Origin: a virus
Length of the DNA: 64,000 nt
Virus record (IMG/VR): IMGVR_UViG_3300001679_000053
Coordinates: 1-64,000 of that record
Strand: one strand, 5' to 3'
Shown here in pieces: positions 1,076 through 20,962 of the stretch (its first letter is position 1; each line of letters starts with the position of its first letter). The notes below the pieces were generated by a model. It did no database searches and was not told the DNA's origin. It saw nothing but the letters and a program-made list of their open reading frames with translations. Both the position numbers and the translations under genes were made by a program.

Positions 1076-1258
1076 CTAAACACACTCAAGGTTTTCTGTA
1101 TATAATCCCTCTACTACACACCTGGCAACAGTCTGTAACCTCTTTAATGAAAGATTATATAACGTATAGTTATCAGTGTCCTCGCCAATAATCAGACACA
1201 GAGCCCTTGCTTTCGGGCTTACTGCTTTTCTTTTTATTAACTCTCCGACTTCAAACAT
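1076..1258 (-). CDS. small SH3/KOW-like protein (divergent VGDLV family)
   Basis: Starts MFEVGELIK; beta-strand pattern. Confidence 0.65.
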   Translation of the reverse strand: MFEVGELIKRKAVSPKARALCLIIGEDTDNYTLYNLSLKRLQTVARCVVEGLYTENLECV

Positions 1259-1443
1259 TATAGGTCCACACCCTTCCTTTTATAAGGGTTCTCGGATCTT
1301 ACGGGCACACGCTCTAACTGATAGTGTGTCTCCAGCACGGAACGCATGCCTCGGACCTCCGTTGCAATCTCATGGATCGCCATAACAATAAATGCGGCGG
1401 ATGCTCCAACCGCCACCATAATAAGAAACTCCATTCTATTCAC
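1258..1443 (-). CDS. small membrane protein
   Basis: N-terminal hydrophobic helix; GGAGG SD. Confidence 0.65.
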   Translation of the reverse strand: MNRMEFLIMVAVGASAAFIVMAIHEIATEVRGMRSVLETHYQLERVPVRSENPYKRKGVDL

Positions 1444-1759
1444 CTCCTACGTGATTATCTGATAGTTCTTTGTCAGCCTGTTCGGTCATTTTAGCTAAAT
1501 CAGCCATTGTTAACTGTTTAACTTTATGCCTCTTATTCTGCTCGCGGATCAATCTGTTGTATCGCTTCTTTTCATACTTGTTAATATGAAGGTTCTCGAT
1601 ACCTATTGCTCTCATCTTGTGCATGAATAACTTGACATTCTTATACCTTGTACCGTCGCTGTCTTTTACTCTTGAATCAGCGCGGGTCAACACTACCTCA
1701 CGACCGATCAAGCGACCGTCAACCATTTCCACGATTGTCTGTGATATGTAGTATTTCAT
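1436..1759 (-). CDS. hypothetical protein
   Basis: 107-aa ORF packed into the operon. Confidence 0.7.
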   Translation of the reverse strand: MKYYISQTIVEMVDGRLIGREVVLTRADSRVKDSDGTRYKNVKLFMHKMRAIGIENLHINKYEKKRYNRLIREQNKRHKVKQLTMADLAKMTEQADKELSDNHVGGE

Positions 1760-2161
1760 TTAGATACCCTCGCCATTGGCCAGCGCAGCCAAATCAGCTT
1801 TATCTTCGTCGGTCAAGTGCTCTTTGTTCTTGTTGCGGAGGCTCGCGGCGCTCATCTTGGTGGGGTTTTTGTGCTCCCCGTTGCAACCATCGGCAAACGA
1901 CTGCGCGCCTTCGGGCGTATTGTAGTCCATGATCGCTTGCTTGCCTTGTGTGGTCGAGTTGCGAAACACGCGCCACATCTTCGGACCCACTTGCTCGACG
2001 GTCCAGCCTGTAAGCTGCTTGCGCGTCGGGGGTTTGGGCTGCGGGCGATAGACCTTTTTGCGGTTTGAGATAATCTCGATGTTGTTGATCATCGGATCGG
2101 CGCGATAGCGATAATCGCCGTTAGAGTCAGTAAGTTGGTCGAGGCTGAATGTCGTGGTCAT
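1760..2161 (-). CDS. hypothetical protein
   Basis: 133-aa ORF directly behind a promoter cassette. Confidence 0.75.
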   Translation of the reverse strand: MTTTFSLDQLTDSNGDYRYRADPMINNIEIISNRKKVYRPQPKPPTRKQLTGWTVEQVGPKMWRVFRNSTTQGKQAIMDYNTPEGAQSFADGCNGEHKNPTKMSAASLRNKNKEHLTDEDKADLAALANGEGI

Positions 2162-2240
2162 AGTTTTTTCCTTTTCTATACCTATATTATACCATTAAAA
2201 GGGGGTGCTGTCAACACCTAAGTTGTCAAGTGAATGTCAG
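2162..2240 (-). promoter_or_regulatory. early promoter cassette (TGACA-TGACA-TTGACA-17-TATAAT-leader/SD)
   Basis: Coding strand ctgacattcacttgacaacttaggtgTTGACAgcacccccttttaatggTATAATataggtatagaaaagg. Confidence 0.85.
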
Positions 2241-2458
2241 CCGTTGCAAGCTGGGTGACCCCAGTTGTTCGCTTGCCACTCGCTGATCTGTCCGTCTTGG
2301 CTCAGTCCATCAACCCAGTCGTTCCAAGCCTCGCGGCGCGCTGGCCAGTCAGGTTGACCGTCCTGCTCGAACTTTTCTTGGATCATCGGAAGGATCTCGG
2401 TGATGAAGGTATCGCATGCGTCTGCGAAAAGGATGACGGTCGGAATGTTTGAAGCCAT
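2237..2458 (-). CDS. hypothetical protein
   Basis: 73 aa, AAGGAG SD, flanked by two near-identical promoter cassettes. Confidence 0.75.
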   Translation of the reverse strand: MASNIPTVILFADACDTFITEILPMIQEKFEQDGQPDWPARREAWNDWVDGLSQDGQISEWQANNWGHPACNG

Positions 2459-2540
2459 GATGGTTTCTCCTTACTTGGTATAACCATTATACCATTAAAA
2501 CGGGGGTAAGTCAACAACTAAGTTGTCAAGTGAATGTCAG
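2459..2540 (-). promoter_or_regulatory. early promoter cassette (near-duplicate of 2162-2240)
   Basis: Shares attataccattaaaa..ggggg...gtcaac..ctaagttgtcaagtgaatgtcag. Confidence 0.85.
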
Positions 2541-2707
2541 TAGACAAGTTTTAAGTGTTCTGCTCTTATAGTCTCGCGCCGGCCATCGGCAGCCCACTCC
2601 ACGATCCACCAGTCGCTCGGTAGCGTGAGGGCGCGCCGGATGACGATCCCCACAGGGGCGCGTTTGAGGTTGTAGTGGTTCCGCTGAACCAAGTCACCGA
2701 CTTTCAT
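2537..2707 (-). CDS. VGDLV-family SH3/KOW-like miniprotein (56 aa)
   Basis: Hand-translated MKVGDLVQRNHYNLKRAPVGIVI...EHLKLVY. Confidence 0.8.
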   Translation of the reverse strand: MKVGDLVQRNHYNLKRAPVGIVIRRALTLPSDWWIVEWAADGRRETIRAEHLKLVY

Positions 2708-2853
2708 TCTATCACATTCAGTAAGCGGGGGTCATCCCATTCTGGCGATAAGCCGATCCAGCCAACGAATACCTGACCCTCTCTATCATCAAATCCGATC
2801 TCAAGGATCAACCCGTGAAAGCCCGCAAACTCAACCAGATCACCTACTTTCAT
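2704..2853 (-). CDS. VGDLV-family miniprotein (49 aa)
   Basis: MKVGDLVEFAGFHGLILEIGFDDREGQVFVGWIGLSPEWDDPRLLNVIE; ATGA overlap with the next gene. Confidence 0.8.
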   Translation of the reverse strand: MKVGDLVEFAGFHGLILEIGFDDREGQVFVGWIGLSPEWDDPRLLNVIE

Positions 2854-2985
2854 CTACCCTCGGACGGTTTGAGTTGTCAAGGAATCGTCAAGGACGATGG
2901 GTGCAGTCAAGCGGATCGTCGTCTCGTCAAAGACGGAACCAGATCCGGGAGTCGAGAGCATAGCCAATAAAGTCAATAGTTTCAT
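2854..2985 (-). CDS. small hypothetical peptide (43 aa)
   Basis: MKLLTLLAMLSTPG...; fills the gap exactly. Confidence 0.45.
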   Translation of the reverse strand: MKLLTLLAMLSTPGSGSVFDETTIRLTAPIVLDDSLTTQTVRG

Positions 2986-3726: not shown

Positions 3727-3805
3727 AGTTTTTTCCTTTTCTATACCTATATTATAGCATTGGAAGGGGTGACTGTCAAGGTTTAAGCTGTCAAGCGTTT
3801 GTCAA
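3727..3805 (-). promoter_or_regulatory. early promoter cassette
   Basis: ttgacaaacgcttgacagcttaaaccTTGACA-17-TATAATataggtatagaaaagg. Confidence 0.85.
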
Positions 3806-3988
3806 GAGCTTCAGATGACTGCTTTTCTGTGTGATGGGCTCATTTTCATGCGTCCACAATACTTTAACGTCGGCGTTGCCTTGCCATGAGCCAACTTCGG
3901 TGACAAGACCGGCAAAGTTGCCGGTGATTGCCGGAGAGCTATACGTGACAAGATCGCCGACATAAATACCATTAAGAGTACATCGCAC
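3791..3988 (-). CDS. VGDLV-family miniprotein
   Basis: ...IYVGDLVTYSS...VKVLW...; GTG start inferred. Confidence 0.7.
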   Translation of the reverse strand: MRCTLNGIYVGDLVTYSSPAITGNFAGLVTEVGSWQGNADVKVLWTHENEPITQKSSHLKLLTNA

Positions 3989-4148
3989 TGAGCACCATCC
4001 ATTCTTCTGCGCGAAACCAATCGGGAAACCCAAGCAGTTTGATCCAACTTACCCCTATGACGCTCATTTTCTCTGTTACGAGGAAAGGGCGTTGTGTGTG
4101 AACACTTGGATTTTCAATAACGGTTTTTACCAAGTCACCGATTTTCAC
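3972..4148 (-). CDS. VGDLV-family miniprotein (58 aa)
   Basis: GTG start, MKIGDLVKTVIENPS... Confidence 0.75.
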   Translation of the reverse strand: MKIGDLVKTVIENPSVHTQRPFLVTEKMSVIGVSWIKLLGFPDWFRAEEWMVLSAMYS

Positions 4149-4314
4149 TGATCACCGCCGCTTCGTCTGCTTCCCATTGGTCGATCTGACCGTTGTGCAG
4201 CACTTTTATATCCAGAGGATCGCCATACTGATCCCGGATAAGGATCTGCGTAACCACGCCAATCGTGTCGGGATAGGCGACCGGACACAGGCATACCAGA
4301 TCACCGACTTTCAT
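4135..4314 (-). CDS. VGDLV-family miniprotein (59 aa)
   Basis: MKVGDLVCLCPVAYPDTIGVV...AVISENR*. Confidence 0.8.
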   Translation of the reverse strand: MKVGDLVCLCPVAYPDTIGVVTQILIRDQYGDPLDIKVLHNGQIDQWEADEAAVISENR

Positions 4315-4459
4315 TGATAACCTTCAATATCTTGGGGTTGTCCCATTCCGGCAACAATCCAAACCATCCGACAAATACTTGACCGTCCCGATCATCTTCA
4401 CCGATCTCAAGTATCAACCCGTGATAACCCCGAAACTCCACCAATGCGCCAACTTTCAT
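4301..4459 (-). CDS. VGDLV-family miniprotein (52 aa), paralog of 2704-2853
   Basis: MKVGALVEFRGYHGLILEIGEDDRDGQVFVGWFGLLPEWDNPKILKVINESR*. Confidence 0.8.
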   Translation of the reverse strand: MKVGALVEFRGYHGLILEIGEDDRDGQVFVGWFGLLPEWDNPKILKVINESR

Positions 4460-4659
4460 GCTGTTATCCTGTTCATCCATTTCAAAACTCCACGATCAAT
4501 GATCGTCGGGGTTGCCTCTCCGACCAGCAAAACTTGATGGTTCTCGATGGTCGAGCCATCGTCAAAGTGAATAAAAGCCTCACCGAGATAAACGGCCAGC
4601 CGCCCATACAGGCGCATGGACACGGTTCCTTCAAATCTATACAAATCACCGACTTTCAT
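4456..4659 (-). CDS. VGDLV-family miniprotein (67 aa)
   Basis: MKVGDLYRFEG...; start corrected to the junction ATG. Confidence 0.8.
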   Translation of the reverse strand: MKVGDLYRFEGTVSMRLYGRLAVYLGEAFIHFDDGSTIENHQVLLVGEATPTIIDRGVLKWMNRITA

Positions 4660-4813
4660 AGATGACCTCCCACATTCTCGGGTCGCAGGTTTCGGGCGTG
4701 GTTGACCCAACGACCAACACTTTGACCCGCAAGAACCCCATCGCGGCGATATTCAATACCACCGCAACGCAGCCCGGATTTCGCTTTGGTCTGATCAGAT
4801 CACCGACTTTCAT
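4646..4813 (-). CDS. VGDLV-family miniprotein (55 aa)
   Basis: MKVGDLIRPKRNPGCVAVVL...WEVIYESR*. Confidence 0.8.
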   Translation of the reverse strand: MKVGDLIRPKRNPGCVAVVLNIAAMGFLRVKVLVVGSTTPETCDPRMWEVIYESR

Positions 4814-5313: not shown

Positions 5314-5393
5314 AGATTTTTTCTCCTTTCTATACCTATAATATAACCGCGAATGGGGCTATCGTCAAGGTTAAAAATGTCAAGAGGATGTAA
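5314..5393 (-). promoter_or_regulatory. early promoter cassette
   Basis: cttgacatttttaaccTTGACG-17-TATATTataggtatagaaaggag. Confidence 0.8.
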
Positions 5394-5583
5394 AGTGTTC
5401 TAAGAAGATTTCGTGAAACTTTAACCGCACGTCTGTCCCCAAAAAAACAACCGTGTAAGCCTTGGTGTAGGATTTTGAAGTCTCACCTACTTCCATGATC
5501 AAACCGACCCGATGATCGGGTATTTCAACCTGATGTGTATTATCTTTGATCCTCACCAGATCACCGGGCTTAAACTTGCTCAT
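5380..5583 (-). CDS. SH3/KOW-like miniprotein
   Basis: MSKFKPGDLVRIKD...GLIMEV. Confidence 0.75.
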   Translation of the reverse strand: MSKFKPGDLVRIKDNTHQVEIPDHRVGLIMEVGETSKSYTKAYTVVFLGTDVRLKFHEIFLEHFTSS

Positions 5584-7167: not shown

Positions 7168-7246
7168 GTTCTTTTTCCTTTCTATACCTATAATATAGCA
7201 CCCAAAAGGGCAAACGTCAAGGTAAATGTTGTCAAGTGAATGTCAG
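7168..7246 (-). promoter_or_regulatory. early promoter cassette
   Basis: ctgacattcacttgacaacatttaccTTGACG-17-TATATTataggtatagaaagg. Confidence 0.85.
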
Positions 7247-7446
7247 GGAAGTTTATACATCGCTCGAAGTTTGATCTCATCGAGCCATCCCTGCTCACCA
7301 TCAATATGTAGTTTGAACCTCATCCTTTTGTTGACAAGATCACCATATTTGACACGCGCTGTTTCCTCGCGGTCAAGGATCAGGGCGGGCTTATCGTCGC
7401 GTTTCGACCATACAAGGTCGCCTATTTTAAGTTTGTCGGTCCACAT
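7243..7446 (-). CDS. SH3/KOW-like miniprotein
   Basis: MWTDKLKIGDLVW... Confidence 0.75.
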   Translation of the reverse strand: MWTDKLKIGDLVWSKRDDKPALILDREETARVKYGDLVNKRMRFKLHIDGEQGWLDEIKLRAMYKLP

Positions 7447-7672
7447 CGGATATTATGATCAGGTCTTCTTCGTTAAATCGCATGCGCTCATCACTCTTGA
7501 GCCACTTTACCTCGTACTCGATTCGGCGATCTTCTGGTTTAGCTATGAGAACCACGATCCCAAGACCGTGAACCCTCTTATACTGGCGTCCCATTCCGCC
7601 GGGACCGGAGAGGCGAACAATGTCGCCAATCATCGGAGCGCGGAGGGGCGGTCGCCTTACGCTACTATGCAT
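7427..7672 (-). CDS. SH3/KOW-like miniprotein
   Basis: PMIGDIVRL...GLGIVV...YEVKWL; start approximate. Confidence 0.7.
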   Translation of the reverse strand: MHSSVRRPPLRAPMIGDIVRLSGPGGMGRQYKRVHGLGIVVLIAKPEDRRIEYEVKWLKSDERMRFNEEDLIIISDVDRQT

Positions 7673-10728: not shown

Positions 10729-10806
10729 TGATTTCTTCTCCTTACCCTATAAATATAACCCCCAAACCCCTTTCGGTCAAGGTAAATGCTGTCAAGCAGT
10801 TGTCAA
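10729..10806 (-). promoter_or_regulatory. early promoter cassette
   Basis: ttgacaactgcttgacagcatttaccTTGACC-17-TATATT. Confidence 0.8.
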
Positions 10807-11128: not shown

Positions 11129-11300
11129 TAACAACCTCCAACTCGCCTTCATTATACTGAACGTAATCCCACAATGGCTTATCCCACATACACGTGCATA
11201 CCCTTTCTTCAAGAGAACGCACCGACACGCTTTTAACGATACCGATACGTGGGTGGCCATTACCTTGATGTTTGAGTTTTACCAGATCACCAACTTTCAT
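11115..11300 (-). CDS. VGDLV-family miniprotein (probably leaderless mRNA)
   Basis: MKVGDLVKLKHQGNGHPRIG...EVVSESR*; only 6 nt between TATAAT and ATG. Confidence 0.8.
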   Translation of the reverse strand: MKVGDLVKLKHQGNGHPRIGIVKSVSVRSLEERVCTCMWDKPLWDYVQYNEGELEVVSESR

Positions 11301-11360
11301 ATATATATTATAACACCGCGCAGCGGTTAACGCAAGTTTTTCCCGTCAAGAGATTGTTAA
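11301..11360 (-). promoter_or_regulatory. early promoter (leaderless type)
   Basis: TTGCGT-17-TATAAT-atatat-ATG with upstream boxes. Confidence 0.7.
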
Positions 11361-11506
11361 GAACTAACAACCCTCATATATTCGGCAGATACTTTGTATC
11401 CCTGGTTAAGTTTAACGAACCTCCCCGTTTTCTTGCTGCCCCACACATCCACAACGATGCTGTATTTTTTATGGTATCTATCAAACACCAGATCACCGAC
11501 TTTCAC
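11357..11506 (-). CDS. VGDLV-family miniprotein
   Basis: GTG start, MKVGDLVFDRYHKK... Confidence 0.75.
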   Translation of the reverse strand: MKVGDLVFDRYHKKYSIVVDVWGSKKTGRFVKLNQGYKVSAEYMRVVSS

Positions 11507-11681
11507 TGACAACCTCCAACCATGGCTCGGGCTCCCAGTCAACTTTGCCTGAACCTCCAAACCATTTTATACCTATTTGGGTAGAGTTAGGATGATGGTC
11601 CCTGTCAACAACGATGCCGACAAGATCACTATCATACATAGTGTCCTTCATTCTCACCAGATCGCCAACTTTAACCTTCAC
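11493..11681 (-). CDS. VGDLV-family miniprotein
   Basis: MKVKVGDLVRMKD...WLEVVSESR*. Confidence 0.8.
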   Translation of the reverse strand: MKVKVGDLVRMKDTMYDSDLVGIVVDRDHHPNSTQIGIKWFGGSGKVDWEPEPWLEVVSESR

Positions 11682-11850
11682 TTAATAGCTCCAGATGGAT
11701 TGTTGAGTGGTTCCGTGAATCGCCATCGTTCCATAAAACTTCGACTTCATTTGCATCACCGATTTCTTCGGGATCGATACAAGTAACGATACCCAACGAC
11801 GCGATGTTATCAGGGTTAAACTCAAATGTCACCAGATCACCAACTTTCAT
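11671..11850 (-). CDS. VGDLV-family miniprotein (59 aa)
   Basis: MKVGDLVTFEFNPDNIASLGIVTCIDPEEIGDANEVEVLWNDGD...LELLSEG*. Confidence 0.8.
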   Translation of the reverse strand: MKVGDLVTFEFNPDNIASLGIVTCIDPEEIGDANEVEVLWNDGDSRNHSTIHLELLSEG

Positions 11851-12131: not shown

Positions 12132-12255
12132 TGTGCTTTCTGTGCGTTGGGAAAAGAGATTTTTGGTAAGAAAAAATGGCGAGAAAAAATCGCGGGATCT
12201 TGCCCTACTCTATAAATATAACCCCTATGTGGGGGCGCGTCAAGGGGACTAACAT

Positions 12256-13481: not shown

Positions 13482-13691
13482 TCAGGACGAAGAAACAAGT
13501 TCCCATCTGATAGATACTGTGACAAACTCACCGCTTGGATTGCCCCTTGATGGCTTTAGCACTCTGACGATGATCCCGCTACCATCTGAACAAGGCGCAT
13601 GGTCTATAACAAGCGCAAGAGGGTTGTCAGGAAGGTTCTTGTGCCGCACCAAAGATCCTACGGCGTGGATTGGGTGTCGTTGCTCGGTCAT
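13482..13691 (-). CDS. SH3/KOW-like miniprotein
   Basis: MTEQRHPIHAVGSLVRHK...; behind the cassette at 13692-13758. Confidence 0.75.
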   Translation of the reverse strand: MTEQRHPIHAVGSLVRHKNLPDNPLALVIDHAPCSDGSGIIVRVLKPSRGNPSGEFVTVSIRWELVSSS

Positions 13692-13758
13692 AGTTTTTTC
13701 CTTTCTATACCTATAATATAGCAAAGCATAGCGCCACTGTCAACGCCTAAGTTGTCAA

Positions 13759-14120: not shown

Positions 14121-14405
14121 TCACTTCACAAACTTCAAATCTTTACGCAGGAAATATCCAGACGCGCTGCCGTGATAGATTGTTGTTCCGAATCGGCTCG
14201 CAGGACCATCTTTCTGCATCCAGTTAATATAATAAAATGTGCTTTCATTCTTAGATGTCCATGGCCTGATACGTGGGTTATTTTTCACACACACAACCAG
14301 CCCCACAAGGGACTTTTTACCATCCCAAATCTTGTTCTTCCATGTCCACATCGGTTCTGAACATAACGAATATGTTGACAATGTTACCAAATCACCGACT
14401 TTCAT
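14121..14405 (-). CDS. VGDLV-family protein (94 aa)
   Basis: MKVGDLVTLSTY... Confidence 0.8.
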   Translation of the reverse strand: MKVGDLVTLSTYSLCSEPMWTWKNKIWDGKKSLVGLVVCVKNNPRIRPWTSKNESTFYYINWMQKDGPASRFGTTIYHGSASGYFLRKDLKFVK

Positions 14406-14568
14406 TGATAACCTCCAAATGCCTCGCCGCAAAGGATCGTATGCGACCACCCACCAAAACCTGATATTGGGTTGTGGAATACTCGGGTGTATTTTTGACG
14501 ATAACCCCCATCACTCCAGCGAGTTCAAACCTTGCGTAACGACTCTTTACCAAATCACCGACTTTCAT
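14392..14568 (-). CDS. VGDLV-family miniprotein (58 aa)
   Basis: MKVGDLVKSRYARFELAGVMGVIV...HLEVINESR*. Confidence 0.8.
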   Translation of the reverse strand: MKVGDLVKSRYARFELAGVMGVIVKNTPEYSTTQYQVLVGGRIRSFAARHLEVINESR

Positions 14569-14735
14569 GCTGCGCTCATCACTTCATAGTTGAGTCTATC
14601 GTGTGTGAGGTTCCAAGTCGCCCACATTCGATAGTTGGTCTTCATATTATGTAACAGTGCATCGTCACCGACAACACACATAACTAACCATATCGTTCCA
14701 TTCGCTTGCATACGCACCAGATCACCGATTTTCAT
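14565..14735 (-). CDS. VGDLV-family miniprotein (56 aa)
   Basis: MKIGDLVRMQANGTIWLV... Confidence 0.8.
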   Translation of the reverse strand: MKIGDLVRMQANGTIWLVMCVVGDDALLHNMKTNYRMWATWNLTHDRLNYEVMSAA

Positions 14736-14869: not shown

Positions 14870-14905
14870 ACCTATAATATAACACCCATTTGCCCCAATG
14901 TCAAG

Positions 14906-15112
14906 TCAAGAACCTGTCAAGTAAACCACATCATCGTTTCTTTGGTTGACCATACATTTATAACCATCGATCCATACAATCCATATCAAGTCTTTCCAGC
15001 CTCCAGTTTGCCGATCATCATGCTCATAGCTGTCGAGTACAATGCCGGGGTTAGACCAGTCATCATCACCGAACGATTTTGGCTTGAACGATATGAGATC
15101 ACCGACTTTCAC
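14906..15112 (-). CDS. VGDLV-family miniprotein
   Basis: GTG start, MKVGDLISFKPK... Confidence 0.8.
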   Translation of the reverse strand: MKVGDLISFKPKSFGDDDWSNPGIVLDSYEHDDRQTGGWKDLIWIVWIDGYKCMVNQRNDDVVYLTGS

Positions 15113-15260
15113 TGATAACCTCCCCGCTCCAGTCATATATCCAATACTCATAGTTGCCATCAAGCGAGCGCACAAGAGCGCCACCTTTCACATTAGTAAC
15201 CATAACCATACCGATATACACCACGGGAGCATTTACGCGAACCAGATCACCGACCTTCAC
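15099..15260 (-). CDS. VGDLV-family miniprotein (53 aa)
   Basis: MKVGDLVRVNAPVVYIGMV...GEVISESR*. Confidence 0.8.
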   Translation of the reverse strand: MKVGDLVRVNAPVVYIGMVMVTNVKGGALVRSLDGNYEYWIYDWSGEVISESR

Positions 15261-15426
15261 TGATCACCTCAAGATATTGTTGTTCTATGCTCCGTTCATT
15301 AAGCCAGTCGCCACTCCACAAAGCCTCTACATACACCAAGCCCGGTGGTCCGTCACGGCTAACCTTTGTGACTATGCCTGTGTGCCACTCGGCATGCCTA
15401 TGTTTAATCAAATCACCTACTTTCAC
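15247..15426 (-). CDS. VGDLV-family miniprotein (59 aa)
   Basis: MKVGDLIKHRHAEWHTGIV...YLEVISEGR*. Confidence 0.8.
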   Translation of the reverse strand: MKVGDLIKHRHAEWHTGIVTKVSRDGPPGLVYVEALWSGDWLNERSIEQQYLEVISEGR

Positions 15427-15601
15427 TGATCACCTTCAAGTTTCGTTTCATGGCATAGCCGCTGTCACTTGTGCCATGGCCGCCATCGAGATACTTAATC
15501 CATGCGCCTTCGCGATCCCATTCTTCGACCCGAACAACAATAGCTTTCCTAAACTTGTTCTTGCACCACTTTTCAATCTCGACCAGATCACCTATTTTCA
15601 C
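15413..15601 (-). CDS. VGDLV-family miniprotein
   Basis: MKIGDLVEIEKW...LKVISESR*. Confidence 0.8.
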   Translation of the reverse strand: MKIGDLVEIEKWCKNKFRKAIVVRVEEWDREGAWIKYLDGGHGTSDSGYAMKRNLKVISESR

Positions 15602-15773
15602 TGATCACCACCAACTCACGCTCTTTCCACATGCCCATCGACCACTCCGGGCAATCCCATAAAACTTTATATTCTTCACAGTCCAGGTCACCTTGAAAAC
15701 TACCAACAATCACACCAATCTTGGGGTGACCATTTCCTCGCCACTTTAGTTTAACCAGATCACCGACTTTCAT
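15588..15773 (-). CDS. VGDLV-family miniprotein, paralog of 11115-11300
   Basis: MKVGDLVKLKWRGNGHPKIG...VVISENR*. Confidence 0.8.
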   Translation of the reverse strand: MKVGDLVKLKWRGNGHPKIGVIVGSFQGDLDCEEYKVLWDCPEWSMGMWKERELVVISENR

Positions 15774-15957
15774 TTATCAACTCGATGCATCCAATGGGAT
15801 ACCACGCTTCTTGGCCGGCTTCCAACACTTTAACTAACCCCAAACCATTCGGATGGTTTTCGCTCTTGTTGACTTCCAACACGATGCTCACGAAAAATGG
15901 ATGGGTGATAAAAGGGCGCGATGGTGGTCCCACCTTTACCAGATCGCCTACTTTCAT
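15760..15957 (-). CDS. VGDLV-family miniprotein
   Basis: MKVGDLVKVGPP...ELINESR*. Confidence 0.8.
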   Translation of the reverse strand: MKVGDLVKVGPPSRPFITHPFFVSIVLEVNKSENHPNGLGLVKVLEAGQEAWYPIGCIELINESR

Positions 15958-16124
15958 AATACTGGACACATTACCTTGACTAAATGTGGCATCACCCAAC
16001 TGATTCTGCCGTCATTCCATCGGACTATTGGGCGCGCCTCACGGTTGTGGCGATGCCATCCAACTATAATACCCAACATGCCACCCTCAGATTTAAGGCT
16101 TCTCACCAGATCACCGACCTTCAC
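15954..16124 (-). CDS. VGDLV-family miniprotein (56 aa)
   Basis: MKVGDLVRSLKSEGGMLGIIV...VRWNDG. Confidence 0.8.
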   Translation of the reverse strand: MKVGDLVRSLKSEGGMLGIIVGWHRHNREARPIVRWNDGRISWVMPHLVKVMCPVL

Positions 16125-16287
16125 TGATCACCCTCAAATACTCTGCCCACTCTATCGAATCGTCGCCGTCAAGCCATTTGACGCGCACGGCTGGGCCGTT
16201 ATTATAGTTATCGTCACCATCGCCTACTTCCGTGACAATGCCCCGAATCATATGATGGGGGGATTCTACCAAATCACCTATTTTCAT
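16111..16287 (-). CDS. VGDLV-family miniprotein (58 aa)
   Basis: MKIGDLVESPHHMIRGIV...VKWLDGD...LRVISEGR*. Confidence 0.8.
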   Translation of the reverse strand: MKIGDLVESPHHMIRGIVTEVGDGDDNYNNGPAVRVKWLDGDDSIEWAEYLRVISEGR

Positions 16288-16444
16288 TTAATCTCTCCAA
16301 AAACTCTGCTGTATGCCAAGAAGCATCACCATCGAGCCACACAACCATAACCGCATCATCATCACCGATTTCTTCAGGATCAATGTGCGAAACTATGCCG
16401 ATGTATTTGCCTTCAACGTCTCTTACCAAATCACCGACTTTCAC
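16274..16444 (-). CDS. VGDLV-family miniprotein, paralog of 11671-11850
   Basis: MKVGDLVRDVEGKYIGIVSHIDPEEIGDD...LNENR*. Confidence 0.8.
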   Translation of the reverse strand: MKVGDLVRDVEGKYIGIVSHIDPEEIGDDDAVMVVWLDGDASWHTAEFLERLNENR

Positions 16445-16640
16445 TGATAACCTCCAGAATCCGGGGAGGAACTCTTTCCACAATCTCGCCAGATGCCCAC
16501 AATACTGAGACGGCTGGTGCTTCAATATGATCACCGGGTAGCTCAGCAACAACAACGCCTGTTCTGACATATTCGCCAGTCCAGAACCGCTGGGATTTGG
16601 GAACGTCACTTTCAAACATCACAAGGTCACCGACTTTCAT
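16431..16640 (-). CDS. VGDLV-family miniprotein
   Basis: MKVGDLVMFE...LEVISESR*. Confidence 0.8.
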   Translation of the reverse strand: MKVGDLVMFESDVPKSQRFWTGEYVRTGVVVAELPGDHIEAPAVSVLWASGEIVERVPPRILEVISESR

Positions 16641-16720
16641 ATATTTCTTCCTTTCTATACCTATAATATAGCACCCAAACGGGTGTTAGTCAACCTCTAA
16701 GTTGTCAAGTGATTGTTAAG
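16641..16720 (-). promoter_or_regulatory. early promoter cassette driving the ten-gene array
   Basis: ttaacaatcacttgacaacttagaggTTGACT-17-TATATTataggtatagaaagg. Confidence 0.85.
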
Positions 16721-16724: not shown

Positions 16725-16934
16725 TTAAACTTTTTTGGTCTTCCCGCTTGGGCTGATAACTTTTAGGGCTGAACGCTGCCACCATCCGATAGGATAACTT
16801 GCGGATAACCACCGAACATTACATTCGATTCCCTTAGTCTCCATCACCAACCCAACGCAAGAAATGTCGCGCTCCACATCGTAGAGTGCGACAACAAGAT
16901 CACCGATGCTGGGGGCGCCGCTAGCTTTCATCAA
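16725..16934 (-). CDS. SH3/KOW-like miniprotein
   Basis: PSIGDLVV...GLVME...VRWL. Confidence 0.75.
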   Translation of the reverse strand: MMKASGAPSIGDLVVALYDVERDISCVGLVMETKGIECNVRWLSASYPIGWWQRSALKVISPSGKTKKV

Positions 16935-17142
16935 TAGGTTCCAAGTCTGTCAACGGAATGGTCCGGCGGTTACCGTTAATCAACACAACCGCGTGAGGCT
17001 CTGGATCGATCTTGCGCCAGTCTACCTTGATGCCAAGTTCTTCTGTGCGCCAGCATTTCTTTTCAACAAAATCAACAATAAGCCCAGCGCGGAACGATGC
17101 TCCACGCGAGGACGGAAGTTTAACTAAGTCACCTACTTTCAT
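16921..17142 (-). CDS. VGDLV-family miniprotein
   Basis: MKVGDLVKLP...IDES*. Confidence 0.8.
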   Translation of the reverse strand: MKVGDLVKLPSSRGASFRAGLIVDFVEKKCWRTEELGIKVDWRKIDPEPHAVVLINGNRRTIPLTDLEPIDES

Positions 17143-17323
17143 TTATCACCACCAATCTTTGAGTATCAAGCCATCCAGTTTCTCCGTTGCTAAACAACAC
17201 CTGTGCTGACTCTGTATCGTGTCCAGTCTTAGACATCTTCACCACCAAACCATGCTCCGCAGTATAGCGATCCATGTCATCGTTCAAAATACTTTCAAAC
17301 CTTACCAGATCACCTACTTTCAT
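17129..17323 (-). CDS. VGDLV-family miniprotein
   Basis: MKVGDLVRFES...VVINESR*. Confidence 0.8.
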   Translation of the reverse strand: MKVGDLVRFESILNDDMDRYTAEHGLVVKMSKTGHDTESAQVLFSNGETGWLDTQRLVVINESR

Positions 17324-17851: not shown

Positions 17852-18195
17852 GCTTGAATCTCCACAGGATTTGCGTCGAGATTATAGCTACGATCTGCCA
17901 TTCGATCCCAACTGATCTCGGACCACTCAGCAAAAATCTTCCAAAGCTGCTCGCTCGTCATTTCTTTCAGTTTCTCTTGGTCCCACTCAATAGGCTTCGC
18001 AATATCGTCTTTTTCTCCAACGGGAGCCTCGTATACCTGTCTGTCTTGTATCGCATCGAGCATCGATGCTTCGTCGTCAATATCCAAGAACTCCATTATA
18101 TCAGCAATACACGCCATGGCGCAACCTTTCTGAGTCAGGTGTACGCTGCTAAACAACTCGCCTTCATAGCTTCCTTGCATAACCCAAACTTTCAT
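17848..18195 (-). CDS. hypothetical protein
   Basis: 115 aa, ATGA overlaps on both sides. Confidence 0.75.
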   Translation of the reverse strand: MKVWVMQGSYEGELFSSVHLTQKGCAMACIADIMEFLDIDDEASMLDAIQDRQVYEAPVGEKDDIAKPIEWDQEKLKEMTSEQLWKIFAEWSEISWDRMADRSYNLDANPVEIQA

Positions 18196-18365
18196 GTTAT
18201 CACCTTCAAATCTTTAACTGAGCAAAAGCCGCTCTGCTGCGTAGCCATCCAGAACACGCGAGCGATCTTGCCGTCTGCCATCAGGCTAATGACAAGCCCG
18301 TGGTTTGACTTGTTGTGCCCTTGCACAAAGCCGATGCTCTCTACAATACTTCCAACTTCGATCAT
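18192..18365 (-). CDS. SH3/KOW-like miniprotein (57 aa)
   Basis: MIEVGSIVESIG...HGLVI...ARVFW...DLKVIT*; behind the cassette at 18366-18442. Confidence 0.75.
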   Translation of the reverse strand: MIEVGSIVESIGFVQGHNKSNHGLVISLMADGKIARVFWMATQQSGFCSVKDLKVIT

Positions 18366-18446
18366 GTTTTCTCCTTTCTATACCTATAATATAACATAGT
18401 GGGACACAGGTAGCAAGGGCAATCCTGTCAAGTGATTGTCAAGAGT

Positions 18447-18641
18447 CTAAACAACATTCCAGCGACCGTGATCACTTCTTTCGATGATTTTCCCTCGCCT
18501 GAGAATCTTGGCTGTCCCTGTACGCTGATCAACATCAATGACGAGCCCGATCCATTCGCCAAAGGTTCCTATATTTTCGTGTACCATATCACCAGCGACG
18601 ATAAATCGCACGGGGCGCGCTTTCATTTCTTCAGGGCTCAT
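18447..18641 (-). CDS. SH3/KOW-like miniprotein
   Basis: IVAGDMV...IGLVIDVD; behind the cassette at 18642-18708. Confidence 0.7.
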   Translation of the reverse strand: MSPEEMKARPVRFIVAGDMVHENIGTFGEWIGLVIDVDQRTGTAKILRRGKIIERSDHGRWNVV

Positions 18642-18688: not shown

Positions 18689-18910
18689 TCAAGTCAAAGA
18701 GTTGTCAAAGGGTTCCAGAAAACTTATCCATTCTTCTGATAGCTGGCCGTCGTGCCAGCGTATCTCAAATCGGCGCGTAGTGGTGCCCTTGGCTTTCACT
18801 TCGCGTAGAATCACGCCAGGAAGGGCTTTATACGCATCCGTGTACCTCTCCCACTTAAATGTGGCAGAGGGACTCGGAATGTATTTTACCAGATCGCCTA
18901 CTCTTATCAT
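18689..18910 (-). CDS. VGDLV-family miniprotein
   Basis: MIRVGDLVKY...PGVIL...FEIRWHDG. Confidence 0.8.
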   Translation of the reverse strand: MIRVGDLVKYIPSPSATFKWERYTDAYKALPGVILREVKAKGTTTRRFEIRWHDGQLSEEWISFLEPFDNSLT

Positions 18911-19065
18911 ACAGCCGTGTCAAGTATTTCAAGCTGCATATAGTTGGTGTGATCGAGCGACCCGCACCCCCAGTATACCCAGACAGCCACACCGTCGATC
19001 AGCCTTACCGTGCCAATCTTGCCAGCTTCAATATGTTTCACAATATCACCAATACTAAAATCCAT
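18907..19065 (-). CDS. SH3/KOW-like miniprotein (52 aa)
   Basis: MDFSIGDIVKHIEAGKIGTV...VWVYW; AAGGAG SD. Confidence 0.75.
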   Translation of the reverse strand: MDFSIGDIVKHIEAGKIGTVRLIDGVAVWVYWGCGSLDHTNYMQLEILDTAV

Positions 19066-19120
19066 TTTGCTCTCCTTGGATGTATATAATATAGCACCCT
19101 GCTATGAAAAAAGCAAGATT

Positions 19121-19312: not shown

Positions 19313-19325
19313 TTTACCTCCTAAA

Positions 19326-19411
19326 TGGTAGCTGATGCGGGACTCGAACCCGCAAGCCCGAACGGGCGGGAGATTTTAAGTCTCCTGTGTATACCGTTCC
19401 ACCAATCAGCC
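19326..19411 (-). tRNA. tRNA-Leu(UAA)
   Basis: GGCTGATTGGTGGAACGGTATACACA-GGAGA CTTAAAA TCTCC-long variable arm-GCGGGTTCGAGTCCCGCATCAGCTACCA. Confidence 0.95.
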
Positions 19412-19460
19412 CTTCCTATATAAAGTATATCGCATTACGCACGCCCTGTCAAGTGCAAAC

Positions 19461-19694
19461 TTACATAACTTCTACGATTTCTGACTCCATAAAATGCCTC
19501 TTAATCCCGTCCACACACAAAACCTCATAAACATATTCATCCATAAAATCTAAAAACTCGGGGTCGGCGCGGATCACAAGACCGTAGTGAGTGTAATCTG
19601 TCGCGTCAACATCGTCATAAATATAGGTATAAAAATCCATGAAGTCATAGACACATCGAACGAAAGTACCGGATTGAAAGCGTGGAGGATACAC
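19461..19694 (-). CDS. hypothetical (possibly SH3-like) protein
   Basis: FQSGTFVRC...YGLVI...YEVL. Confidence 0.65.
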   Translation of the reverse strand: MYPPRFQSGTFVRCVYDFMDFYTYIYDDVDATDYTHYGLVIRADPEFLDFMDEYVYEVLCVDGIKRHFMESEIVEVM

Positions 19695-19709
19695 ACCATA
19701 AATAGCTTC

Positions 19710-20348
19710 CTATTTGGTCTTACGATGTAGTTTCAGGTGTCGTTCCTCAATAATAAGAGGTATTGTAGCGCCTATGGGTAAAATCTTGTATCGTTTAGAA
19801 CCCTTGGCATGAGAATATATTTCAGGGCGAATCTCCATTATGAACCCGCCATGCTTTTTGAACTTTTCCACGACGGCCGATTGAGTAGTCCACGCTACAC
19901 TATCTATCTCAATGTCTTTGTAGGCATTCAGATTGGTTCTCCCCTGTATATGGGTGCTTACCGCATAACGTGGCGCCTGTGTGTGGGCTGCAAGAACCTT
20001 GCGGGAATACTTATTATTATACATGCGGAGAAACTTTTTATACTCCGGCACTTTGTCTGCTAAAATGTCTGCGGCCATTGGCTTATAATAAGGCTGCCGG
20101 GAATGATATGTGGCCAGCACGATTCCATCTTTTTTATATTTCTTAATATATTCAGTTTGCCAGTTGTCGTGAACTCCCTGCGCGTCATCGCCGTTACGCG
20201 CCAATACTTTGCCTATGCTTTGTTTTTGTTTGATTGATAGGTTGCGACCCTTGGCAAGTTGGTCAAGGATAGATTCTAAAAAGCCACGATCCCATCCACC
20301 GCAGACCGACCTTGAAAGAGTTTCAGTAATTTTTTGTTCCATTGACAT
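19710..20348 (-). CDS. hypothetical protein, paralog of 9919-10728
   Basis: Shared motifs; promoter cassette at 20349-20421. Confidence 0.8.
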   Translation of the reverse strand: MSMEQKITETLSRSVCGGWDRGFLESILDQLAKGRNLSIKQKQSIGKVLARNGDDAQGVHDNWQTEYIKKYKKDGIVLATYHSRQPYYKPMAADILADKVPEYKKFLRMYNNKYSRKVLAAHTQAPRYAVSTHIQGRTNLNAYKDIEIDSVAWTTQSAVVEKFKKHGGFIMEIRPEIYSHAKGSKRYKILPIGATIPLIIEERHLKLHRKTK

Positions 20349-20418
20349 AATCTTCTCTCTATGTTATAAATATAACCCAACTCAAGAAAAAAGTCAAGCA
20401 TATGTTGTCAGAGGGATG

Positions 20419-20733
20419 TTAATAATCTGACTCTGCTGCCAAGGTTATTGCATCGATGTACCCCGGCGGTACTTTAGCTATCACCACACGCCAGCCCATC
20501 CAAATAGGCCAAATATCAAAAAAAGGAAATGTTGGTGCTTGGGTAGATAAGTGTCCAGAAACATCAGGCACCTCTATCTGTACTTCCAACATAGCCCCTC
20601 CATCATCTGATGTCGCCAACACTTCATAGCGCCCGTCATAATAATTGGAGATCATTAACAGAAGTGCGTTTATTGCCTCTTGTTTGGGGGACTTTTCTTT
20701 CTTGAAAAATAAATTAGCCATCGGATTCACCAC
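20419..20733 (-). CDS. hypothetical protein
   Basis: 104-aa ORF. Confidence 0.7.
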   Translation of the reverse strand: MVNPMANLFFKKEKSPKQEAINALLLMISNYYDGRYEVLATSDDGGAMLEVQIEVPDVSGHLSTQAPTFPFFDIWPIWMGWRVVIAKVPPGYIDAITLAAESDY

Positions 20734-20962
20734 TCAAAATTTCAAGTCTATCGTGTGCCGCATCGAGTATCATCCAATTGCCCTCCCTTTTCTTTTTGCA
20801 ATCATAACAAAAAACCATCACGGCAGTTGGATCTTTATTCGATACTTCCATGACAATCCCATGTCTATAATTAGGGCTGATACCCCTTAAAACGTCGTCG
20901 GAGGCTTCATATGCATTATGATCCACCACCCACCGTATCAAATTTCCGCGTTTAAATTCCAC
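20714..20962 (-). CDS. hypothetical (possibly SH3-like) protein
   Basis: MEFKRGNLIRW...HGIVMEV. Confidence 0.65.
   Translation of the reverse strand: MEFKRGNLIRWVVDHNAYEASDDVLRGISPNYRHGIVMEVSNKDPTAVMVFCYDCKKKREGNWMILDAAHDRLEILSGESDG

What the first reader, a model, noticed from the sequence alone, without database searches (positions are those of the whole stretch)
1076..20962. Massive expansion (~40 genes) of hypervariable SH3/KOW/Tudor-like miniproteins
Seen: about 29 ORFs begin M-K/Q-V/I-G-D-L-V/I or a close variant, and about 11 more begin with variants such as FKPGDLV, SIGDIV or EVGSIV. They are 49-94 aa and share the pattern GDLV ... G(I/L)(V/I) ... V.V.W ... L.(V/I). About a third are below the ORF-track cutoff. 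Established: this pattern is typical of small five-stranded SH3-like barrels (KOW, Tudor, YorP-like), which bind RNA, proteins or methylated residues. Inference: this is a diversified library on one scaffold, with variable loops and frequent Trp residues, expressed immediately from strong early promoters. Candidate roles are anti-defence inhibitors or decoys, or host-takeover adaptors.
Basis: partly seen in the sequence, partly recalled or inferred. Interest (0 to 1): 0.8.

Follow-up and report, generated by a model that had tools for sequence, protein, structure and literature searches.

The report
Phage array of tiny barrel-protein genes
An uncultured marine phage carries about 40 chained early genes for one uncatalogued family of 50-95-residue KOW/SH3-like barrel proteins with the same core and different surfaces, which related phages add, drop and swap one gene at a time; what the proteins bind is unknown.

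Summary
A profile built from the window finds 33 firm members, all on the minus strand between 2537 and 18910. None lies in the other 82 kb of the 102.5-kb record. Five more are probable and three possible, so the total is 38-41.

Two AlphaFold models (pLDDT 91.8 and 90.8) give a five-stranded SH3-like barrel. The closest solved fold is the Spt5/NusG KOW domain (Z 10.2). No member reaches any Pfam cut-off, and the PHROGs hits are isolated.

The family is large but undescribed:
- At least 3,859 50%-identity clusters exist in metagenomes.
- 1,001 copies lie on 108 IMG/VR loci, many from ~185-191 kb marine phages.

Only the barrel core and the termini (MKVGDLV, LEVISESR) are conserved. The C-terminal tail comes from a 14-nt overlap that holds the next gene's ribosome site and start.

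Paralogues are about 28% identical with pI 4-11, but orthologues are under purifying selection (dN/dS 0.15-0.20), even at paralogue-variable sites. So this is a set of specialised variants, not a currently hypervariable one.

A close relative differs by two exact single-cassette indels and one cassette replacement, all at the junction.

Function is inferred only: early-expressed binders for host takeover or counter-defence. The scan found the same system before on another genome (e1-5760966).

The parts
18689..18910 (-). family member, 73 aa (starts MIRVGDLV)
   Evidence: HMM E 1.8e-12
17129..17323 (-). family member, 64 aa; its start overlaps the non-family ORF 17310-17549 by 14 nt
   Evidence: HMM E 3e-17; orthologue 84% identical, dN/dS 0.08
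16921..17142 (-). family member, 73 aa
   Evidence: HMM E 1.6e-14
16725..16931 (-). family member, 68 aa (SIGDLV variant)
   Evidence: HMM E 1.2e-13; dN/dS 0.22
14906..16640 (-). train of ten chained family genes with no intergenic DNA. Starts: 16640, 16444, 16287, 16124, 15957, 15773, 15601, 15426, 15260, 15112. Stops: 16431, 16274, 16111, 15954, 15760, 15588, 15413, 15247, 15099, 14906. Eight joints are 14-nt overlaps and one is ATGA.
   Evidence: each HMM E <= 8e-14; starts and joints; junction matches
14565..14735 (-). family member, 56 aa
   Evidence: HMM E 2.9e-12
14392..14568 (-). family member, 58 aa
   Evidence: HMM E 2.3e-16
14121..14405 (-). family member, 94 aa, with long loop insertions
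   Evidence: HMM E 9e-13; alignment A1
11671..11850 (-). family member, 59 aa
   Evidence: HMM E 4e-19
11493..11681 (-). family member, 62 aa; the protein that was modelled
   Evidence: HMM E 3.4e-20; AF2 pLDDT 91.8; Spt5 KOW Z 10.2
11357..11506 (-). family member, 49 aa
   Evidence: HMM E 1.5e-11
11115..11300 (-). family member, 61 aa; 48% identical paralogue of 15588-15773
   Evidence: HMM E 1.6e-19
10961..11128 (-). family member, 55 aa
   Evidence: HMM E 3e-13
10792..10974 (-). family member, 60 aa (MQVGDLV)
   Evidence: HMM E 1.1e-12
7427..7633 (-). family member, 68 aa from the ATG at 7633 (MIGDIV variant); downstream of the MoxR-like ATPase gene
   Evidence: HMM E 1.8e-15
7243..7446 (-). 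family member, 67 aa
   Evidence: HMM E 6.8e-10
5380..5583 (-). family member, 67 aa (FKPGDLV variant)
   Evidence: HMM E 2e-16; orthologue 73% identical, dN/dS 0.25
4646..4813 (-). family member, 55 aa; this exact cassette is absent from the close relative L086
   Evidence: HMM E 1.3e-16; indel between two ATGAAAGTCGGTGAT repeats
4456..4659 (-). probable chimeric cassette, 67 aa: family-like for the first 14 residues only
   Evidence: hhalign 92.8% over residues 1-14; 99% nt identity to L086
4301..4459 (-). family member, 52 aa; 77% identical paralogue of 2704-2853; L086 has an unrelated family cassette at this position
   Evidence: HMM E 4e-18
4135..4314 (-). family member, 59 aa
   Evidence: HMM E 1.2e-14; orthologue 95% identical
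3972..4148 (-). family member, 58 aa; this exact cassette is absent from L086
   Evidence: HMM E 5e-12; indel with break at TCAGTG
3791..3988 (-). family member, 65 aa (YVGDLV variant)
   Evidence: HMM E 2.6e-15; orthologue 94% identical, dN/dS 0.11
2704..2853 (-). family member, 49 aa
   Evidence: HMM E 1.8e-14
2537..2707 (-). family member, 56 aa
   Evidence: HMM E 4e-16
18192..18365 (-). probable divergent member, 57 aa (EVGSIV variant)
   Evidence: hhalign 95.8%; AF2 pLDDT 90.8 with the same five-strand topology
18907..19065 (-). probable divergent member, 52 aa (SIGDIV variant)
   Evidence: hhalign 93.4%
13482..13691 (-). probable divergent member, 69 aa
   Evidence: hhalign 88.9%
20714..20962 (-). 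probable divergent member, 82 aa
   Evidence: hhalign 88.7%
19461..19694 (-). possible member, 77 aa
   Evidence: hhalign 66.8%
18447..18641 (-). possible member, 64 aa
   Evidence: hhalign 61%
1076..1258 (-). possible member, 60 aa
   Evidence: hhalign 58% over 30 residues
16665..16693 (-). sigma70-like promoter (TTGACT-17-TATATT, TG-extended) with a GC hairpin in its spacer; it heads the ten-gene train
   Evidence: 20-nt leader repeat
14876..14904 (-). sigma70-like promoter, 11 of 12 matches
18388..18416 (-). promoter-like site with the conserved leader, upstream of 18365
13715..13743 (-). sigma70-like promoter, 11 of 12 matches, upstream of 13691
12215..12243 (-). sigma70-like promoter heading the operon with members 11850, 11681 and 11506
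5340..5368 (-). sigma70-like promoter heading the operon with members 4813 to 3988
3751..3779 (-). perfect-consensus promoter (TTGACA-17-TATAAT) upstream of the operon ending with members 2853 and 2707

Best explanation
This is a lineage-specific multigene family of stand-alone KOW/SH3-like five-stranded barrel miniproteins, 50-95 aa long. It sits in the early, hyperplastic end of a ~190-kb uncultured marine T4-like myovirus.

Shown:
- The genes are real and under purifying selection.
- They share only a hydrophobic barrel core and their termini.
- They are chained by a 14-nt overlap. The upstream gene's last codons (L-E-V-I-S/N-E-S-R-stop) contain the Shine-Dalgarno sequence GGAGGT, the start codon and the first four codons (M-K-V-G-D) of the next gene.
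- Related phages differ by whole cassettes that are added, lost, replaced or reordered exactly at this junction.

Inferred:
- Host RNA polymerase transcribes the trains immediately from strong sigma70-type promoters, and the genes are translated by coupling.
- Each paralogue is a specialised small binder. Its own surface docks on a different host or phage macromolecule to take over the host or neutralise a defence.
- Junction recombination gives each phage its own repertoire.
For: Family and count:
- Searches give 33 firm members plus 5 probable and 3 possible.

Fold:
- Two AF2 models have pLDDT 91.8 and 90.8.
- VIA gives Spt5 KOW Z 10.2, rmsd 1.5 A over 59 residues; NusG KOW Z 7.8; Tudor Z 8.2.
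- Foldseek TM scores are 0.7-0.82.
- The PDB profile search gives NusG KOW at E 0.008.

Scaffold versus surface:
- In 1,034 members only M-K-V-G-D-L-V, G-[ILV]-[VI], V-x-W and L-E-V-I-S-E-S-R are conserved. All other columns have 4.0-4.2 bits of entropy.
- pI runs from 4.1 to 10.8.

Selection:
- dN/dS is 0.08-0.53 for window members against their orthologues.
- Pooled over 177 independent pairs it is 0.15 for the core, 0.15 for variable strand positions and 0.20 for variable loops.

Junction:
- 515 of 1,034 members are followed by the next member at exactly -14 nt. Of these, 92% end [EA][SGN]R, against 15% of the others.
- Starts without an upstream overlap keep MKVGDLV while varying synonymously.

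Cassette turnover:
- L086 is 91.6% identical over 2.4 kb of flank. It lacks cassettes 4646-4813 and 3972-4148 exactly, and has a different cassette in place of 4301-4459.
- Orthologue order is shuffled in L084, L016 and L104.

Early expression:
- 18 TTGAC-N17-TATAxT sites lie on the coding strand within 20.4 kb.

Spread:
- 3,859 representative clusters; 108 IMG/VR loci with 1,001 members.
- At least 10-20 matches in each of five complete 185-201-kb relatives.
Against: - There is no expression, binding or phenotype data of any kind.
- Promoters are consensus matches only.
- The host is unknown.
- Strong purifying selection on surfaces fits specific targets, but it does not show that those targets are defence systems.
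- No known anti-defence or takeover gene was recognised among the neighbours. PHROGs gave nothing for ten neighbouring ORFs.
- The orthologue pairs were picked at 55-92% identity, which biases dN/dS downwards, and dS is near saturation at 0.8-1.5.
- The second AF2 model used an alignment dominated by firm members.
Confidence: 0.5

Rival explanations
1. Common-target model. All members dock through their conserved face (strand 1 GDLV, strand 2 G-I-V, strand 5 LEVI) on one host machine, as KOW and Tudor-like domains do on RNA polymerase, ribosomal protein S10 or Rho. The variable faces tune or recruit. The array would then be a graded set of transcription or translation modulators.
For: - The closest structures and the only marginal sequence matches are NusG/Spt5 KOW domains.
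- The UvrD Tudor domain bound to the RNA polymerase lobe is among the Foldseek hits.
- There is a weak Pfam match to PcrA_UvrD_tudor.
- The genes are placed in the early region.
Against: - The conserved residues are alternating hydrophobic positions in strands 1, 2, 3 and 5, as expected for a barrel core rather than a surface patch.
- Part of the terminal conservation is explained by the dual-coding junction.
- Net charge runs from -11 to +9.
- No member reaches a KOW or Tudor Pfam threshold.
Confidence: 0.15
2. Selfish-cassette model. The junction is a recombination-prone, self-propagating unit, and the arrays grow and shrink as gene accordions. Most individual proteins contribute little, and the family persists because the unit carries its own ribosome site and start.
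For: - Exact single-cassette indels lie between short direct repeats.
- Cassette order is shuffled between relatives.
- 299 of 448 clusters are singletons.
- A comparable ORFan region of cyanophage S-PM2 was lost spontaneously, and carrying it had a fitness cost in the laboratory (PMC4503421).
Against: - dN/dS is 0.15-0.20 outside the overlap zones, even at paralogue-variable sites.
- Individual cassettes are conserved at 50-95% identity across many contigs.
- The family is present in every complete relative tested.
Confidence: 0.1
3. Hetero-oligomer model. Translational coupling delivers equal amounts of neighbouring paralogues, which assemble into one mixed multi-subunit particle, as Sm/LSm paralogues form rings.
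For: - Tight 14-nt coupling chains up to ten genes.
- Some structural neighbours are oligomeric, such as the R67 DHFR tetramer at Z 8.3.
Against: - Cassette content and order differ between close relatives.
- No conserved surface positions could form a shared interface.
- Copy numbers range from about 10 to about 40 per genome.
Confidence: 0.07
4. The ORFs are not genes. The repeats would be a non-coding or RNA-level array, and the open frames an accident.
For: Half of the firm members are shorter than 60 aa, and there is no expression evidence.
Against: - All 33 lie on one strand, each with a start codon and a GGAGG-type site at the right distance.
- dN/dS is well below 1.
- Amino acids are kept while codons vary synonymously.
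- The models are confident folded barrels.
- Independent gene callers predicted thousands of homologues.
Confidence: 0.02

Closest known systems
KOW domains of NusG/Spt5 and ribosomal proteins uL24 and eS4
   Same: Both are five-stranded SH3-like barrels with a G-D-x-V first strand and a glycine before strand 2. This is the best structural match (4zn3_A: Z 10.2, rmsd 1.5 A over 59 residues). It is also the only marginal sequence match (NusG KOW, E 0.008).
   Different: The window proteins are stand-alone, 50-95 aa, with no NGN domain or ribosomal context. No member hits a Pfam KOW model at E <= 1. Their surfaces are not conserved, and there are tens of paralogues per genome.
Tudor, chromo and PWWP 'royal family' domains
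   Same: They share the small barrel, with Z 7-8 and TM 0.6-0.7.
   Different: Family-wide conservation shows no aromatic cage. Only one Trp at 57% and another at 30% are conserved. No Pfam match reaches its threshold.
PeSL (promoter-early stem-loop) cassettes in the hyperplastic regions of T4-type phages (Arbiol et al. 2010, PMC2839356; PMC4122927)
   Same: Both involve small non-essential early ORFs in hyperplastic regions of T4-like phages. Both have repeated short sequences with strong sigma70-like promoters. In both, recombination between repeats causes insertions, deletions and replacements between close relatives. The promoters here also carry a GC hairpin.
   Different: Here the recombining repeat is a coding, dual-frame 14-30-nt gene junction made of ribosome site, start and stop. 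The cargo is one protein family rather than unrelated ORFans.
'ORFanage' region of cyanophage S-PM2 (PMC4503421)
   Same: It is a block of small unknown early genes at one locus of a marine T4-like phage, and it is dispensable and variable.
   Different: The S-PM2 ORFs are described as ORFans, not as one paralogous family, and no chaining junction is described.
Other stand-alone small SH3-like proteins: DUF1918 (PF08940), R67 DHFR, PsaE, NdhS, DsrB
   Same: They have the same size and fold (PsaE Z 9.2, R67 DHFR Z 8.3, NdhS Z 8.1). The Atlas feature neighbours with a family name include DsrB and R67 DHFR. A fused five-barrel protein pulled in by the profile, P0005, matches DUF1918 at 3.6e-16.
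   Different: None of the 33 window members matches these Pfam models. None of these families is known as a tens-of-copies viral array; that statement rests on my own knowledge.
Earlier finding of this scan, e1-5760966, on another genome
   Same: It describes the same 14-base overlap chaining genes of one uncatalogued barrel family in an uncultured marine T4-like phage. Whole genes are added, lost, swapped or reordered at the overlap.
   Different: It lies on a different genome. The present window adds copy number, per-site selection, the charge spread and a second fold model.

Membership tests
KOW domain (NusG/Spt5/uL24; Pfam PF00467 and relatives) | Five-stranded SH3-like barrel | tested here: met
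   AF2 pLDDT 91.8 and 90.8; Spt5 KOW Z 10.2, NusG KOW Z 7.8
KOW domain (NusG/Spt5/uL24; Pfam PF00467 and relatives) | Sequence match to a KOW profile above the curated threshold | tested here: not met
   None of the 33 members hits a KOW model at E <= 1. The family profile against PDB gives NusG KOW only at E 0.008.
KOW domain (NusG/Spt5/uL24; Pfam PF00467 and relatives) | Occurs as a module of a transcription factor or ribosomal protein | tested here: not met
   All members are stand-alone ORFs of 49-94 aa.
Tudor/chromo/PWWP readers | Conserved aromatic cage for methylated ligands | tested here: not met
   The only conserved aromatics are one Trp at 57% and one at 30%. The surrounding loop columns have about 4 bits of entropy.
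Tudor/chromo/PWWP readers | Profile match above threshold | tested here: not met
   The best matches are Chromo_MORC2_6th at E 0.048 and PcrA_UvrD_tudor at E 0.13, each in a single member.
PeSL-type shuffling cassettes of T4-like phages | Repeated strong sigma70-like early promoters with a stem-loop in a hyperplastic region | tested here: inconclusive
   18 near-consensus promoters lie within 20.4 kb, several with a GC hairpin in the spacer. Promoter and terminator activity was not tested.
PeSL-type shuffling cassettes of T4-like phages | Indels and replacements between close relatives have their breakpoints in the repeats | tested here: met
   Against L086 there are two exact single-cassette indels and one replacement. 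The breakpoints lie in the coding junction, not in the promoter cassette.
DUF1918 (PF08940) | Profile match above the 24-bit cut-off | tested here: not met
   No window member matches. Only the distant fused protein P0005 does.
Known PHROG families | Profile match | tested here: not met
   Three single-member hits (best phrog_1690, E 1.8e-5, unknown function); the other 30 members match nothing.
Integron-type gene cassettes | attC recombination sites and an integron integrase | not tested
   No integrase search was run. The resemblance is only that single genes are the unit of gain and loss.

The most novel reading that the evidence does not exclude
The arrays are a phage-encoded repertoire of binders built on one minimal barrel scaffold. 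Each cassette neutralises or hijacks a different host factor, such as a defence system. The self-contained junction, which serves as stop, ribosome site and start at once, lets single binders be exchanged between co-infecting phages. Each phage in this abundant marine lineage would then carry its own combination, a cassette-shuffled counter-defence arsenal.
Probability: 0.3. Interest if true: 0.85.

Novelty: new variant of a known kind. Interest (0 to 1): 0.66.

Why it matters
Small early phage proteins are the main source of host-takeover and anti-defence inhibitors, and most are orphans that cannot be compared with one another. Here one minimal scaffold has diversified into thousands of variants: at least 3,859 clusters at 50% identity in metagenomes, and about 40 in this genome. 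Each variant is under purifying selection.

- The family offers a natural series for asking how a 60-residue barrel acquires new specificities.
- It is a ready-made library to screen against bacterial defence systems.
- The junction shows a compact way to build operons from interchangeable genes.
- It also accounts for about 40 ORFs, half of them below usual gene-calling length cut-offs, in a widespread uncultured marine phage lineage.

Tried and rejected
Searches that gave nothing:
- Megablast of 3.9 kb and tblastn of one member against the phage collection found no match. Close records may have been withheld there.
- The search for related loci with the alignment failed because no conserved stretch was long enough. 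I used the junction DNA pattern instead.
There is therefore no read-level or expression evidence, and read laying was not used.
- Pfam and PHROGs gave no family for members or neighbours.
- A full-text search for MKVGDLV, VISESR or VINESR found no relevant paper.

Relatives without the family:
- The nearest cultured phages by terminase are Flavobacterium phage immuto (47%) and Microcystis phage Mel-JY01 (44%). Vibrio phage Va1 is the nearest by the MoxR-like ATPase. All three have no profile match.

Host and other leads:
- The genome-contig scan gave arrays on contigs of a Legionellales MAG and a Flavobacteriales MAG. These are probably mis-binned phage contigs and they disagree on host. A Methanocellales match had no family ORF and looks like chance.
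- The host stays unknown. The sigma70 consensus and the strong Shine-Dalgarno sites make a proteobacterium more likely than a Bacteroidota host, but that is inference.

Ideas rejected:
- MKVGDLV is not conserved only because of dual coding. Starts without an overlap keep the residues while varying synonymously.
- The family is not a uniform nucleic-acid binder. pI spans 4.1-10.8.
- The expansion is not a recent tandem duplication. Only one window pair exceeds 50% identity.

Not done:
- Complex prediction was not used. The report claims no specific pair, and shuffled cassette order argues against obligate neighbour pairs.

Full report
**1. What the window is**

The window is the first 64 kb of a 102,518-bp IMG/VR virus record that CheckV rates 54% complete. 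All large genes are on the minus strand. They include:
- a DnaE-type polymerase, a GroEL-like chaperonin, ribonucleotide reductase, a DnaB-like helicase and a UvsX-like recombinase;
- beyond the window, the sheath, major head protein, portal and large terminase.

The terminase is 47% identical to that of Flavobacterium phage vB_FspM_immuto and 44% identical to that of Microcystis phage Mel-JY01. The phage is therefore a distant T4-like myovirus. PMC11348598 describes a group of 155-190-kb phages around immuto that includes Tara 'GOV_bin' genomes. Whether this phage belongs to that group is my inference from the terminase match.

**2.

A loose motif scan finds 37 hits on the minus strand between 1.2 and 19.1 kb. 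The plus strand of the whole window has 5.

An HMM iterated over every six-frame open stretch of the whole 102.5-kb record converges on 33 ORFs. Their E-values run from 3e-20 to 7e-10. All are on the minus strand between 2537 and 18910, and no further significant hit exists anywhere.

Profile-profile comparison adds five probable members: 18192, 18907, 13482, 20714, and 4456 for its N-terminus only. It adds three possible ones: 19461, 18447 and 1076. Three unrelated control ORFs score 1.5% or less. Sixteen of the 33 firm members are shorter than 60 aa.

**3. Fold**

Member 11493-11681 was modelled with the 33-paralogue alignment and gives pLDDT 91.8 with five strands. The divergent member 18192-18365 gives pLDDT 90.8 and the same topology. 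Its alignment was dominated by firm members, which is a caveat.

- Foldseek against PDB returns eS4 and Spt5 KOW, PWWP and Tudor domains at TM 0.6-0.82.
- The Foldseek-independent search puts M. jannaschii Spt5 KOW first (Z 10.2, rmsd 1.5 A over 59 residues). Then come PsaE (9.2), R67 DHFR (8.3), a Tudor domain (8.2), NdhS (8.1) and NusG KOW (7.8).
- By sequence, the family profile reaches NusG KOW only at E 0.008.
- No member reaches a Pfam cut-off. PHROGs gives three isolated hits to families of unknown function.

This is an SH3-like barrel, most like KOW, and an uncatalogued sequence family.

**4. The family is large and marine**

- The profile finds 3,859 50%-identity cluster representatives at E <= 0.001. 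Nearly all are stand-alone proteins of 52-70 aa with the same termini.
- Their sources include Tara Oceans.
- The junction DNA pattern hits 108 IMG/VR loci. Many lie on contigs of 185-191 kb that CheckV rates complete.
- These loci hold 1,001 members, always on one strand, with up to 26 in about 10 kb.
- Five complete relatives have at least 10-20 matches each.
- Immuto, Mel-JY01 and Vibrio phage Va1 have none.
- BFVD hits cluster in runs of neighbouring UniProt accessions. This pattern suggests a few deposited but unannotated genomes with many copies each. That is inference.

**5. What is conserved, and why**

In 1,034 aligned members the conserved columns are:
- M-K-V-G-D-L-V (G 100%, D 97%, L 93%, V 91%);
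- G-[ILV]-[VI] in strand 2;
- V-x-W in strand 3;
- L-E-V-I-S-E-S-R at the end.

All other columns have 4.0-4.2 bits of entropy, close to random. Insertions fall in three loops.

The C-terminal block is a nucleotide-level feature. The codons for L-E-V contain GGAGGT, the ribosome site of the next gene. The next start lies inside I-S/N-E, and the stop TGA lies inside the next gene's G-D codons.
- 515 members are followed by another member at exactly -14 nt. Of these, 92% end [EA][SGN]R, against 15% of the rest.
- Overlapped starts are mostly GTG, which gives ...ISESR upstream. An ATG start gives ...INESR (and direct reading of the frames).
- Non-family genes use the same joint: 17310-17549 and 4800-5117 end in ESR and feed into a family gene.
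- Starts with no upstream overlap still encode MKVGDLV, with synonymous variation. GGT drops from 100% to 64%, and the Leu and Val codons are mixed. The N-terminal strand is therefore conserved as protein, consistent with the G-D-x-V first strand of KOW-like barrels.

**6. Specialised, not hypervariable**

- Window paralogues are about 28% identical to each other and fall into 28 of 448 clusters. Only one pair is close: 4301-4459 and 2704-2853 at 77%.
- Most members nevertheless have orthologues in other contigs at 50-95% identity, with dN/dS of 0.08-0.53 once the overlap zones are removed.
- Pooled over 177 independent orthologue pairs, dN/dS is 0.15 for core columns, 0.15 for paralogue-variable strand positions and 0.20 for paralogue-variable loops.
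- So the surfaces that differ between paralogues are themselves constrained, which implies that each member has its own function.
- Caveats: pairs were chosen at 55-92% identity, and dS is high.
- pI ranges from 4.1 to 10.8 and net charge from -11 to +9. This argues against a single shared nucleic-acid-binding role.
- Trp, Cys and His are enriched 2.7-, 2.2- and 1.9-fold compared with the large phage proteins.

**7. Cassette dynamics**

Locus L086 is 91.6% identical to the window over 2.4 kb (7248-4796) and 99% identical over 4659-4449. Even so, it differs in three ways:
- It lacks cassette 4646-4813 exactly. The deletion lies between two copies of ATGAAAGTCGGTGAT.
- It lacks cassette 3972-4148 exactly, with the break at TCAGTG.
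- It carries a different family cassette in place of 4301-4459.

In L084, orthologues of window members 15601, 4813, 16124 and 11128 are adjacent. L016 and L104 show other orders. The single gene with its junction is the unit of gain, loss, replacement and rearrangement.

**8. Expression context**

Eighteen TTGAC-N17-TATAxT sites lie on the coding strand within 20.4 kb. Two are perfect consensus, and several have a TG extension and a GC hairpin in the spacer. Eight copies of a 20-nt leader follow them. These are consensus matches only. Read-level evidence could not be obtained.

**9. Mechanism**

Shown:
- The genes form a real family under selection.
- They fold as KOW-like barrels.
- They are chained by dual-coding joints.
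- They turn over cassette by cassette.

Inferred, with my odds:
- Early transcription and translational coupling, which I consider likely.
- Each member is a specialised binder of a different host or phage target, for takeover or counter-defence. I put this at about 0.5 together with the shown parts.
- Rivals: a common target such as RNA polymerase, ribosome or Rho reached through the conserved face (0.15); selfish accordion cassettes with little individual function (0.1); a hetero-oligomer of neighbouring paralogues (0.07); not genes at all (0.02).

**10. Comparison with what is known, and novelty**

- The fold is a known kind.
- Cassette shuffling by short repeats in hyperplastic early regions is known from PeSLs in T4-type phages (PMC2839356).
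- Dispensable ORFan blocks are known from cyanophage S-PM2 (PMC4503421).
- What is different here is that one minimal barrel family has expanded to tens of copies per genome and thousands of variants overall. The copies are chained by a coding junction that is at once stop, ribosome site and start, and that junction is also where recombination breaks.
- No paper in the library holds the family's motifs.
- The scan itself reported the same system on another genome (e1-5760966). Other first-reader notes on this genome describe the junction, the ten-gene train, the dispersed paralogues and the promoters. I reached these points independently and tested them here.

I class the finding as a new variant of a known kind. 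It is of solid interest, chiefly because it is directly testable as a natural binder library.

Noticed in passing
window 9919-10728 (-) and 19710-20348 (-): Two larger early ORFs, 269 and 212 aa, share a similar C-terminal block (GSKRY-x-[VI]LP-x-G-[SA]T-[VI]P ... EER-x-x-KL). They look like paralogues. Neither has a Pfam or PHROG match.
   Followed up: no
window 17310-17549 (-) and 4800-5117 (-): Two non-family genes also end in ...ESR and overlap the next family gene by 14 nt. One is a 79-aa ORF and the other a 105-aa ORF with a weak SWIM zinc-finger match. The junction is therefore not restricted to family-to-family joints.
   Followed up: partly
window 4456-4659 (-): This ORF begins MKVGDLY and joins the upstream cassette by the 14-nt overlap, but the rest of it does not match the family. 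It is 99% identical at nucleotide level in L086. It may be a chimeric or re-framed cassette.
   Followed up: partly
window minus strand: 2170-2189, 3735-3754, 5324-5343, 7176-7195, 9840-9859, 13699-13718, 16649-16668, 18372-18391: There are eight copies of a 20-nt promoter/leader block (TATTATAGGTATAGAAAGGA). The -10 region runs straight into a ribosome site. Several of the associated promoters have a GC-rich hairpin between -35 and -10, which is reminiscent of PeSL cassettes.
   Followed up: partly
window 5944-7167 (-) and 7665-8750 (-): A DUF2201 VWA-like/metallopeptidase protein and a MoxR-like AAA_5 ATPase sit in the middle of the early small-gene region. Family members 7427-7633 and 7243-7446 lie between them.
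   Followed up: no
window 32161-33756 (-), 42480-45935 (-): The phage encodes a GroEL-like chaperonin and a DnaE-type (Pol III alpha) polymerase. The polymerase is only about 27-31% identical to those of cultured phages. The 1,186-aa ORF at 25836-29396 has no PHROG match.
   Followed up: no
L123 (Legionellales MAG PBLX01000048.1, 84.5-kb contig) and L122 (Flavobacteriales MAG DQKQ01000147.1): Two contigs binned into bacterial MAGs each carry six family ORFs in the stretch fetched. They are probably phage contigs mis-binned into MAGs, and they give conflicting host hints.
   Followed up: partly
protein P0005 (370 aa, metagenomic): This is a natural fusion of five tandem small barrels joined by acidic linkers. 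It matches DUF1918 at 3.6e-16. P0002 (972 aa) and P0008 (727 aa) have 6-7 such stretches each. The scaffold therefore also exists as poly-barrel proteins.
   Followed up: partly
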